22,017 bases of DNA from Escherichia phage vB_EcoS-885R8. The stretch is taken from the sequence record ON470602. One strand, given 5' to 3'. The number at the start of each line of letters is the position of its first letter. Within the stretch, counting starts at the first letter, position 1. The position numbers were made by a program, and so were the translations under genes. The notes under the pieces were generated by a model. The model ran no database searches. It saw only the letters and a program-made list of their open reading frames with translations, and had not been told where the DNA came from. Shown here piece after piece: positions 7,332 to 7,652 of the stretch.

Positions 7332-7652
7332 CTACACACACTGATCCTGAAAATACTGGTCATCCAGTGCAAAGATCACTGCTTCAAACTCATCGCGCTC
7401 AATCAATACCGGATGAGTGGCTAAATATTCATTTATCTCTGTCAGAGATAAAGGCAAAGGCACCCCGGTCATTCCAGCATAACGTCGGGCACGGGATATT
7501 ACCGAATAGGCGTACAACAATTCCTTAAGCACCGGGTCTATTTCTGGTTCCGGTATCGGTGGCAACCTGAGTTTTTCTCGCTTCCATCTTGCCTTTTCCC
7601 CCCTTTCTCCCCCGAACTCCGATAACCACCGCTGGGCGGCTATGGCTTTTTT
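7332..7652 (-). CDS. tail assembly chaperone -1 frameshift extension (lambda T-like part of a G-T fusion)
   Basis: the -1 frame relative to the upstream chaperone ORF is open from the slippery site to the stop at 7332 (...AIAAQRWLSEFGGERGEKARWKREKLRLPPIPEPEIDPVLKELL...); the track only shows it from 7565. Confidence 0.7.
   Translation of the reverse strand, partial: KKAIAAQRWLSEFGGERGEKARWKREKLRLPPIPEPEIDPVLKELLYAYSVISRARRYAGMTGVPLPLSLTEINEYLATHPVLIERDEFEAVIFALDDQYFQDQCV

What the first reader, a model, noticed from the sequence alone, without database searches (positions are those of the whole stretch)
7332..7652. Canonical -1 programmed frameshift in the tail assembly chaperone (G/GT-like)
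The heptamer A-AAA-AAG (7646-7652, minus strand) sits in the zero frame two codons before the chaperone stop, and the -1 frame is open from there for about 105 codons up to 7332. This is the conserved tail chaperone frameshift arrangement of long-tailed phages, using the dnaX-type slippery sequence rather than lambda's G-GGA-AAG.
Basis: partly seen in the sequence, partly recalled or inferred. Interest (0 to 1): 0.5.

Follow-up and report, generated by a model that had tools for sequence, protein, structure and literature searches.

The report
Tail chaperone G/GT programmed frameshift
This is the ordinary -1 ribosomal frameshift that long-tailed phages use to make two versions of their tail assembly chaperone, here in a Rac-like E. 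coli prophage where public annotation has missed it.

Summary
On the minus strand the heptamer A AAA AAG (7652-7646) lies in the zero frame of a 149-aa tail assembly chaperone gene (8089-7640). One sense codon (CCA) separates it from the TAG stop. From the heptamer's G the -1 frame is open for 104 codons, to 7332.

The gene pair sits between the tail tube gene and the tape measure gene of a Rac-like prophage. RefSeq calls the chaperone's C-terminal 119 aa 'ydaY'.

The comparative evidence for the frameshift is strong:
- In 98 related loci (17 distinct sequences) the homologous position carries A AAA AAG (14), lambda's G GGA AAG (2) or C GCA AAG (1).
- Directly after the heptamer, substitutions fall mostly at third positions of the -1 frame.
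- The first possible start codon in that frame is 28 codons downstream.
- The fused protein aligns colinearly with PHROG 313 (tail assembly chaperone).

No conserved stimulatory RNA structure was found. A local hairpin is confined to the E. coli lineage.

This is an unannotated new member of a textbook mechanism, so interest is low. In this window the tape measure gene carries an amber stop, so this copy of the tail module is probably defective.

The parts
7640..8089 (-). G: tail assembly chaperone, zero-frame product of 149 aa. The likely start is ATG 8089; an alternative ATG lies at 8101. The stop is TAG 7642-7640. RefSeq annotates only 7999-7640 as 'ydaY'.
   Evidence: ORF and translation. 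PHROG 313 tail assembly chaperone, E 8e-47, with the match starting at residue 5 of the 153-aa ORF. RefSeq annotation. 49 homologues start at the MFIL/MLII position.
8096..8099 (-). Shine-Dalgarno-like GAGG, 6 nt upstream of ATG 8089
   Evidence: Read directly from the sequence. This is inference.
7646..7652 (-). Slippery heptamer A AAA AAG in X XXY YYZ phase of G
   Evidence: The homologous position is conserved in 98 loci.
7332..7646 (-). T segment: -1 frame, 104 sense codons plus TAG (7334-7332). It is translated only as the C-terminal part of the 252-aa G-T fusion. G7646 is read twice.
   Evidence: Translation. PHROG 1189, E 6e-36. Weak match to Pfam PF23812 Phage_TAC_18. Third-position substitution pattern from the first codon. 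Protein alignment. The first in-frame start is TTG 7565, at codon 28.
7619..7645 (-). Local hairpin directly 3' of the heptamer (11 bp with one bulge, loop CAGC, -14.2 kcal/mol). It is a possible lineage-specific stimulator, not a conserved one.
   Evidence: z -2.4; 3 of 200 shuffles fold as well. It is absent in Klebsiella, Citrobacter, Raoultella, Pantoea, Siccibacter and Erwinia relatives.
8150..9112 (-). Tail tube (major tail) protein gene, upstream neighbour. By analogy with lambda it is the presumed binding partner of the T domain.
   Evidence: Pfam PF18906 Phage_tube_2, E 1e-31. RefSeq 'phage tail tube protein'.
3935..7168 (-). Tape measure protein gene, downstream neighbour and presumed partner of the G domain. 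It carries an in-frame amber TAG at 4672-4670 (codon 833).
   Evidence: Pfam TMP_2, E 7e-82. RefSeq 'internal stop'. Sequence. The intact relative has CAG at that codon.

Best explanation

Most ribosomes translate G (149 aa) and terminate at TAG 7642-7640. A minority slip back one nucleotide while the two Lys codons of A AAA AAG occupy the P and A sites. E. coli has a single tRNA-Lys, and it re-pairs better with AAA than with AAG. These ribosomes continue in the -1 frame for 104 codons and make a 252-aa G-T fusion with the junction ...QDTIKK-AIAAQRW....

By analogy with lambda, G and the G part of GT coat the tape measure protein. The T part recruits the tube protein, and the fixed low GT:G ratio is set by the slip frequency.

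Shown here: the sequence anatomy, conservation of the slip site, and coding selection in the -1 frame beginning at the heptamer.

Inferred: that the fusion protein is made, its ratio (probably below one to a few per cent), and the binding roles of the two parts.
For: - Anatomy at the stated coordinates.
- Gene order is tube, G, T, tape measure, in a phage structural module.
- G matches PHROG 313 tail assembly chaperone. The engineered fusion aligns colinearly with profile positions 20-245 of 258, and the score rises from 161 to 176 bits.
- In 98 related loci giving 17 distinct 48-nt segments, the homologous heptamer is A AAA AAG in 14, G GGA AAG in 2 and C GCA AAG in 1.
- Lys codon 15 is always AAG. 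Codon 14 is always AAA when it is Lys. Codon 13 always ends in A (ATA/GTA), or in G before GGA. Flanking synonymous sites vary freely.
- Pseudomonas phiPSA1-like phages (26% identity in G) carry G GAA AAG at the same spot. Homology to T starts at exactly that nucleotide.
- The zero-frame stop lies 1, 7, 25 or 35 codons after the heptamer in different relatives, while the -1 ORF is always retained.
- Over the 37 codons after the heptamer, differences fall at -1-frame third positions (for example 7/8/23). There are 16-21 synonymous against 5-10 nonsynonymous codon changes in most comparisons with diverged relatives. The zero frame gives 2-5 against 25-30.
- The T alignment is conserved from its first residue, and there is no start codon for 27 codons.
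- Published E. coli measurements: A_AAA_AAG and G_GGA_AAG are equally shift-prone, at 0.29% and 0.28% unstimulated and 4.3% and 3.8% with the IS911 stimulator (PMC4066793, Table S3). A_AAG is the core shifty motif with the sole tRNA-Lys (PMC5009743).
- The lambda G/GT mechanism and its wide conservation are reviewed in PMC5009743. A distant relative, Acinetobacter phage TRS1, has the joined CDS annotated.
Against: - There is no protein-level evidence.
- No conserved stimulatory element was found. Without one, the measured efficiency of this heptamer in a reporter is only about 0.3% (PMC4066793).
- The hairpin after the heptamer starts 0-2 nt downstream, closer than typical stimulators, and is not conserved.
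- G has no match in the local Pfam copy, and the T match to PF23812 is below the curated cut-off.
- The AlphaFold model of G is low confidence (pLDDT 57), so the chaperone fold could not be confirmed.
- In this window the tape measure gene has an amber codon. The module may no longer be under selection in this lineage.
Confidence: 0.9

Rival explanations
1. T is an independent small gene. It would be translated from an internal start (TTG 7565 or GTG 7532, the start RefSeq uses for its 66-aa 'hypothetical protein'), perhaps by reinitiation after G terminates. No frameshift would be needed.
For: RefSeq and GenBank annotate a separate ORF here in some genomes. In-frame TTG and GTG codons exist.
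Against: The 27 codons upstream of the first possible start are conserved as protein and change mostly at third positions. No SD-like sequence precedes TTG 7565 or GTG 7532. This reading does not explain the invariant slippery heptamer or the concerted switch to G GGA AAG. The fusion is colinear with PHROG 313.
Confidence: 0.04
2. The fusion is made by transcriptional slippage. RNA polymerase would add or drop an A in the A6 run, producing some mRNAs in which G and T are in frame.
For: The site is a run of six A. The distant relative TRS1 has a run of seven. Homopolymers are known slippage sites (PMC3711429).
Against: The paper at hand cites A runs longer than 7 for transcriptional realignment (PMC3711429), so six is short. 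Relatives carry G GGA AAG, G GAA AAG or C GCA AAG at the same position. These have no long homopolymer but keep the A_AAG re-pairing rule for tRNA.
Confidence: 0.03
3. It is a decaying gene. A once continuous chaperone ORF would have been broken by a frameshift mutation in a defective prophage, and the heptamer would be coincidental.
For: This prophage copy is decaying: there is an amber codon in the tape measure gene. Related copies have IS insertions and deletions. One E. coli variant (P0001) is a continuous fusion.
Against: The two-frame arrangement is present in all 98 loci, across Escherichia, Salmonella, Citrobacter, Klebsiella, Raoultella, Siccibacter, Pantoea, Scandinavium, Erwinia and Pseudomonas phages. 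P0001 is a derived 35-nt deletion between GAAGCAG repeats, not the ancestral state.
Confidence: 0.02

Closest known systems
Phage lambda G/GT tail assembly chaperone frameshift (Levin et al. 1993; Xu, Hendrix and Duda 2004, 2013, 2014; reviewed in PMC5009743)
   Same: The gene pair sits between the major tail gene and the tape measure gene. A -1 shift near the 3' end of G produces a C-terminally extended fusion, and the T ORF has no start of its own. Some relatives of this gene carry lambda's own heptamer G GGA AAG at the homologous position.
   Different: The heptamer here is A AAA AAG. No sequence similarity to lambda G or T was demonstrated (no lambda sequence was compared). G is somewhat longer at 149 aa. 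A 163-nt gap containing a terminator-like hairpin separates T from the tape measure gene.
ECs1801-type (HK97-like) tail assembly chaperone of E. coli O157 prophage Sp9: cluster A_AAA_AAG_25 in PMC4066793 and GeneTack cluster 10 in PMC3711429, where two fs-genes of the cluster measured 6% and 7% frameshifting
   Same: It is also an E. coli prophage chaperone between the tail and tape measure genes, and it uses A AAA AAG next to the stop (A AAA AAG TAG).
   Different: There is no detectable sequence similarity to this G. The protein is shorter at 124 aa, and the stop follows the heptamer directly.
Acinetobacter siphophages TRS1 and Loki tail chaperones (PMC5313236; NC_031098 joined CDS)
   Same: The T domain is distantly homologous (about 35% identity). 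The Loki chaperone is a weak fold-search hit for the G model. The -1 fusion is annotated or proposed.
   Different: The slip sites differ: G AAA AAA A in TRS1 and AAAAAAC in Loki. The host genus is different.
E. coli dnaX frameshift cassette
   Same: It has the identical heptamer A AAA AAG, decoded by the same single tRNA-Lys.
   Different: dnaX has an SD-like element upstream and a stem-loop downstream, shifts at about 50%, and its shifted product is the shorter one (PMC3711429, PMC5009743). Here no conserved stimulators were found, the shifted product is the longer one, and the efficiency is probably far lower. There is no Rfam match.

Membership tests
G/GT-type tail assembly chaperone with programmed -1 frameshift | The gene pair lies between the major tail (tube) gene and the tape measure gene | tested here: met
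   Tube gene 8150-9112 (PF18906), G 7640-8089, T 7332-7646, tape measure 3935-7168 (PF06791)
G/GT-type tail assembly chaperone with programmed -1 frameshift | The second ORF overlaps the 3' end of the first in the -1 frame and has no start codon or SD of its own at its conserved beginning | tested here: met
   The -1 frame is open over 7676-7335. The first in-frame start is at codon 28 (TTG 7565), and no SD was seen.
G/GT-type tail assembly chaperone with programmed -1 frameshift | A slippery sequence in the correct phase lies within the overlap | tested here: met
   A AAA AAG at 7652-7646 in X XXY YYZ phase is the only canonical heptamer in the 34-nt overlap
G/GT-type tail assembly chaperone with programmed -1 frameshift | The slip site and the two-frame arrangement are conserved in diverged homologues | tested here: met
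   Of 17 distinct sequences from 98 loci, 14 have A AAA AAG, 2 have G GGA AAG and 1 has C GCA AAG. Pseudomonas phages have G GAA AAG.
G/GT-type tail assembly chaperone with programmed -1 frameshift | The region directly after the slip site evolves as protein-coding in the -1 frame | tested here: met
   Third-position bias, with 16-21 synonymous against 5-10 nonsynonymous changes in the -1 frame in most comparisons, and 2-5 against 25-30 in the zero frame. T alignment.
G/GT-type tail assembly chaperone with programmed -1 frameshift | The proteins belong to recognised chaperone families or share the chaperone fold | tested here: inconclusive
   G matches PHROG 313 'tail assembly chaperone' (E 8e-47) and the fusion is colinear with it. 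However, G has no match in the local Pfam-A or NCBIfam. T matches PF23812 only below the cut-off. There is no PDB relative by sequence. The AlphaFold model has pLDDT 57, with only weak BFVD hits to chaperones and none in the PDB.
G/GT-type tail assembly chaperone with programmed -1 frameshift | A fusion protein is made at a low fixed ratio and is required for tail assembly; G binds the tape measure and T binds the tube protein | not testable with these tools
   This needs reporter assays, mass spectrometry and genetics
dnaX-type frameshift cassette | Heptamer A AAA AAG | tested here: met
dnaX-type frameshift cassette | An SD-like stimulator upstream of the heptamer (searched 6-17 nt upstream in PMC4066793) | tested here: not met
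   The only SD-like element is an AGGA 5 nt upstream, formed by the Gln-Asp/Glu codons. It is not conserved: AAAAGA, CAAAGA and AGAGCA occur in relatives.
dnaX-type frameshift cassette | A conserved stem-loop a few nt downstream of the heptamer | tested here: inconclusive
   The E. coli lineage has a -14.2 kcal/mol hairpin starting 0-2 nt after the heptamer. There is no consensus structure across relatives (-3.2 kcal/mol) and no Rfam match.

The most novel reading that the evidence does not exclude
The hairpin at 7645-7619 is specific to the E. coli lineage and abuts the heptamer. It may be a genuine, recently acquired stimulator that raises the GT:G ratio well above that of relatives lacking it. 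This family would then offer a natural series for studying how the chaperone ratio is tuned: A AAA AAG, G GGA AAG, G GAA AAG and C GCA AAG, with or without the hairpin, and with stops 1 to 35 codons downstream. Related to this, the truncated ydaY of K-12-like Rac remnants keeps the slip site and an intact T ORF. It could therefore be an unannotated recoding site in laboratory E. coli.
Probability: 0.25. Interest if true: 0.3.

Novelty: new member of a known kind. Interest (0 to 1): 0.15.

Why it matters
The main value is for annotation. In more than 1000 complete E. coli genomes this chaperone is labelled 'protein YdaY' with a truncated start taken from the K-12 Rac remnant. The T ORF is either missing or called a 66-aa hypothetical protein, and no ribosomal slippage is recorded. 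Correcting this would give the gene a function and a proper G and G-T product pair.

The interchange of A AAA AAG and G GGA AAG at one homologous position fits published measurements that the two heptamers are equally shift-prone in E. coli. It adds no new mechanism.

Tried and rejected
- **Heptamer count alone:** not informative (8 observed, 6.7 expected).
- **First control over all stop-to-stop ORFs:** confounded by shadow ORFs and N runs. It was replaced by a control restricted to real genes.
- **Conserved RNA stimulator:** RNAalifold on 17 relatives gave only -3.2 kcal/mol with 6 pairs. Single-sequence folds of relatives were no better than shuffles. The 93-nt fold of the window gave z -0.2. 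Rfam gave only chance hits.
- **Upstream SD-like element:** rejected because of its spacing and lack of conservation.
- **Pfam and NCBIfam for G or the fusion:** no match.
- **PDB sequence search with G and T profiles:** nothing.
- **AlphaFold2 model of G from 49 homologues:** low confidence (pLDDT 57). Foldseek against the PDB gave nothing. BFVD gave only weak hits, some named as chaperones, and these are not used as evidence of fold.
- **Literature searches linking ydaY or Rac to frameshifting:** no papers found.
- **A GGGAAAG in Pseudomonas relatives:** first seen in the wrong phase (GGG AAA G) and set aside. The homologous site is G GAA AAG, 24 nt upstream.

Full report
**1. What is in the sequence**

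Read on the minus strand, the region is ...CAG GAT ACG ATA AAA AAG CCA TAG CCG CCC AGC GGT GG....
- ORF 7640-8101 translates to a 153-aa protein ending ...QDTIKKP*.
- The heptamer A AAA AAG occupies 7652-7646 in X XXY YYZ phase. One sense codon (CCA) separates it from the TAG at 7642-7640.
- Reading from G7646 in the -1 frame gives AIAAQRWLSEFGGERGEKARWKREKL..., 104 sense codons ending at TAG 7334-7332.
- The -1 frame opens only at 7676, after a TAA at 7679-7677. A productive shift must therefore occur within about 34 nt, and this heptamer is the only canonical one there.

The true start of the upstream gene is probably ATG 8089:
- a GAGG lies 6 nt upstream of it;
- the PHROG match begins at residue 5 of the 153-aa ORF;
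- homologues begin MFIL/MLII.

This gives a G protein of 149 aa and a fusion of 252 aa.

**2. Is it more than chance?**

The heptamer alone is not rare: 8 occur in the window against 6.7 expected from shuffles. I therefore checked all in-phase X XXY YYZ heptamers in the 22 minus-strand genes.
- Of 31 such heptamers, only two lead to a -1 reading frame that runs more than 3 codons past the gene's own stop.
- One is this site, which extends 102 codons beyond the stop.
- The other (10301-10295) runs into the next gene, which has its own ATG at an ordinary gene overlap.

The decisive evidence is comparative and is given in section 4.

**3. Context**

The window is the structural module of a Rac-like prophage of E. 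coli.
- A 1-kb stretch is 100% identical to many complete E. coli chromosomes and to eight 'vB_EcoS' phage records.
- In one such chromosome the neighbours upstream are rrrD, trkG and ynaK, the marker genes of Rac.
- Gene order on the minus strand is: capsid, head-tail adaptor, head closure, neck, tail terminator, tail tube (8150-9112, Pfam Phage_tube_2), the chaperone, the -1 ORF, and tape measure (from 7168, Pfam TMP_2).
- The upstream ORF matches PHROG 313 'tail assembly chaperone' (E 8e-47). The -1 ORF matches PHROG 1189 (unknown function) and, weakly and below the cut-off, Pfam PF23812 Phage_TAC_18.
- A fusion protein built at the predicted junction aligns colinearly with positions 20-245 of the 258-position PHROG 313 profile. 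It scores higher than G alone, 176 against 161 bits. Some members of that family are therefore evidently annotated as fusions.

Public annotation does not record the frameshift.
- RefSeq labels only the C-terminal 119 aa (7999-7640, TTG start) as 'protein YdaY'. This name and start are inherited from the 5'-truncated remnant in K-12-type Rac.
- The T ORF is either absent from the annotation or called a 66-aa hypothetical protein starting at GTG 7532.
- None of the related phage records examined down to 26% identity carries a joined CDS.
- The more distant Acinetobacter phage TRS1 does carry one.

**4. Comparative evidence**

Using an alignment of G homologues, I collected 13 loci from species-representative genomes and 80 from IMG/VR, and added annotated phages and chromosomes.

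*The slip site*
- Across 98 loci (17 distinct 48-nt segments), the heptamer at the homologous position is A AAA AAG in 14 segments, G GGA AAG in 2 (a Raoultella and a Pantoea genome) and C GCA AAG in 1 (Erwinia phage Gungnir39).
- The second Lys codon is AAG in 17 of 17 segments.
- The first is AAA whenever it is Lys.
- The preceding Ile/Val codon always ends in A (ATA or GTA, with ATA a rare codon in E. coli). It ends in G exactly when the next codon is GGA.
- Neighbouring synonymous sites vary freely: ACG/ACC/ACT, GGT/GGC/GGA/GGG, and AAA/AAG at other Lys codons.
- The switch between two canonical heptamers at one position is what a slip site predicts. It is not what an ordinary Lys-Lys dipeptide predicts.
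- In Pseudomonas phiPSA1-like phages (26% identity in G), the homologous site reads CTG GAA AAG CCA TTG CC. tBLASTn homology to T begins at exactly that nucleotide.
- All variants keep NNA_AAG, the motif on which the single E. coli tRNA-Lys re-pairs with AAA (PMC5009743).

*The stop and the -1 ORF*
- The zero-frame stop lies 1, 7, 25 or 35 codons after the heptamer in different relatives.
- The -1 ORF of about 100-120 codons is always present.

*Coding selection in the -1 frame*
- The translated -1 frame is conserved from its very first residue: A[IL][AE]AQ[RK]W[LI][SN]EFGGE.GEKA[RK]W.REKL.LPP.PEPEID....
- Over the first 37 codons after the heptamer, nucleotide differences from diverged relatives fall mostly at -1-frame third positions, for example 7/8/23.
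- That gives 16-21 synonymous against 5-10 nonsynonymous codon changes in most comparisons. The most diverged relatives, Siccibacter and Pantoea, are more even. Read in the zero frame the counts are 2-5 against 25-30.
- The first ATG/GTG/TTG in this frame is at codon 28, and no Shine-Dalgarno-like sequence precedes it.
- The conserved N-terminal part of T can therefore be reached only by ribosomes arriving from G.

**5. Stimulatory elements**

In the window a hairpin follows the heptamer directly: CCAUAGCCGCC-CAGC-GGUGGUUAU(C)GG at 7645-7619. It has a free energy of -14.2 kcal/mol and z -2.4, and 3 of 200 shuffles fold as well.
- It begins 0-2 nt after the heptamer, closer than usual for stimulators. 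Only its upper six pairs would lie at the ribosome entrance.
- It is intact in the nearly identical E. coli copies. The L081-type variants carry substitutions inside it.
- It is absent from the Klebsiella, Citrobacter, Raoultella, Siccibacter, Pantoea, Scandinavium and Erwinia relatives.
- The alignment consensus structure is negligible at -3.2 kcal/mol.
- An AGGA 5 nt upstream comes from the Gln-Asp/Glu codons, is not conserved and is too close.
- Rfam has no match.

So this is not a dnaX-like cassette, only the same heptamer. Published reporter data for E. coli give these -1 frameshift efficiencies (PMC4066793, Table S3):

| Heptamer | No stimulator | IS911 stimulator | IS3 stimulator |
|---|---|---|---|
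| A_AAA_AAG | 0.29% | 4.3% | 39% |
| G_GGA_AAG | 0.28% | 3.8% | 43% |

The near-equality of the two heptamers fits their interchange in this family. The efficiency here probably lies between a fraction of a per cent and a few per cent. This is inference.

**6. Mechanism and rivals**

The best explanation is lambda-type G/GT frameshifting.
- Most ribosomes make G. A minority slip -1 on A AAA AAG and make G-T.
- By analogy with lambda, G coats the tape measure protein and the T domain recruits the tube protein. Neither protein ends up in the virion (PMC5009743).
- I rate this at 0.9.

The rivals are each weak:
- *Independent translation of T* does not explain the conserved start-less first 27 codons or the conserved heptamer.
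- *Transcriptional slippage* is unlikely on six A. It is incompatible with the G GGA AAG, G GAA AAG and C GCA AAG variants.
- *A decayed single ORF* is contradicted by the two-frame arrangement in every lineage. The one continuous fusion found, P0001, is a derived 35-nt deletion between GAAGCAG repeats.

**7. Comparison with known systems, and novelty**

This works like the lambda G/GT paradigm and meets every sequence-level criterion for it. Family membership at the level of protein fold could not be confirmed:
- G has no match in the local Pfam copy;
- there is no PDB relative by sequence;
- the AlphaFold model is poor (pLDDT 57). It has only weak BFVD hits, some named 'tape measure chaperone', and none in the PDB.

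A AAA AAG is already documented for an unrelated E. coli prophage chaperone. ECs1801 of Sakai Sp9 carries A AAA AAG TAG and shows no BLASTP similarity to this G. It is listed as a true case in PMC4066793. Frameshifting of 6% and 7% was measured for two genes of the corresponding GeneTack cluster (PMC3711429).

I found no paper that links ydaY or Rac with frameshifting. The finding is therefore a new, unannotated member of a well-known kind. Its interest is low and its main value is in correcting annotation.

**8. Caveat for this particular copy**

The tape measure gene in the window has an in-frame amber codon at 4672-4670 (...QEKM*ALND). An intact relative has CAG there. RefSeq flags the gene as a pseudogene with an internal stop in one identical genome. 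At least 12 genomes share the identical sequence. The tail module of this copy is therefore probably non-functional, even though its frameshift signal is intact.

Noticed in passing
window 4670-4672 (minus strand), within the tape measure gene 3935-7168: There is an in-frame amber codon (TAG) at codon 833 of the 1077-codon tape measure gene. The intact relative, E. coli strain 144, has CAG there. The mutation is shared by at least 12 complete genomes with 100% identity, and RefSeq marks it 'internal stop' in NZ_CP026723. This prophage copy probably cannot build normal tails.
   Followed up: yes
window 7640-7999 versus 7640-8089: RefSeq's 'protein YdaY' is only the C-terminal 119 aa of the chaperone, with a TTG start at 7999. 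The name and start are copied from the 5'-truncated K-12 Rac remnant onto intact prophages in about 1000 genomes. K-12-like remnants (L015, L016) still keep the slippery heptamer and an intact T ORF.
   Followed up: partly
window about 8110-8136 (minus strand): A perfect stem, CCCCCTGT...ACAGGGGG, lies between the stop of the tail tube gene and the chaperone start, with no T run after it. It may stabilise the mRNA or lower expression of the downstream genes.
   Followed up: no
window 7195-7208 (minus strand): A terminator-like hairpin, CCCAC-UUCG-GUGGG followed by CUUUUUGUUG, lies in the 163-nt gap between the T stop and the tape measure start. That is an odd place for a terminator within a tail operon.
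   Followed up: no
P0001 (E. coli NB16F79_39920, 240 aa): This is a natural variant in which a 35-nt deletion between two GAAGCAG direct repeats fuses G and T permanently in frame. It would make only the fusion protein and no free G.
   Followed up: partly
L017 (Raoultella), L019 (Pantoea), L003 (Erwinia phage Gungnir39), L007 (Pseudomonas phage PSA-2T): The homologous slip position carries G GGA AAG, G GGA AAG, C GCA AAG (directly followed by TAA) and G GAA AAG respectively. The last two are non-canonical NNA_AAG sites.
   Followed up: partly
L014, L076, L077, L081, L091 (relatives), 30 nt upstream of the main heptamer: A second in-phase heptamer, G GGA AAA (CAG GGA AAA), occurs where the -1 frame is also open in those relatives. 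The window has CAG GGT AAA and a -1 stop there, so this does not apply to the window.
   Followed up: no
window 928-937, 1564-1573, 2914-2947, 3184-3193: There are four runs of N (10, 10, 34 and 10 bases) in the distal tail gene region. They appear to be masked stretches and they break ORF calls there.
   Followed up: no
window 10295-10301 (minus strand): An in-phase G GGG GGA lies at the very end of the head-tail adaptor gene and leads into the next gene in the -1 frame. That gene has its own ATG at the overlap, so this looks like ordinary translational coupling.
   Followed up: partly
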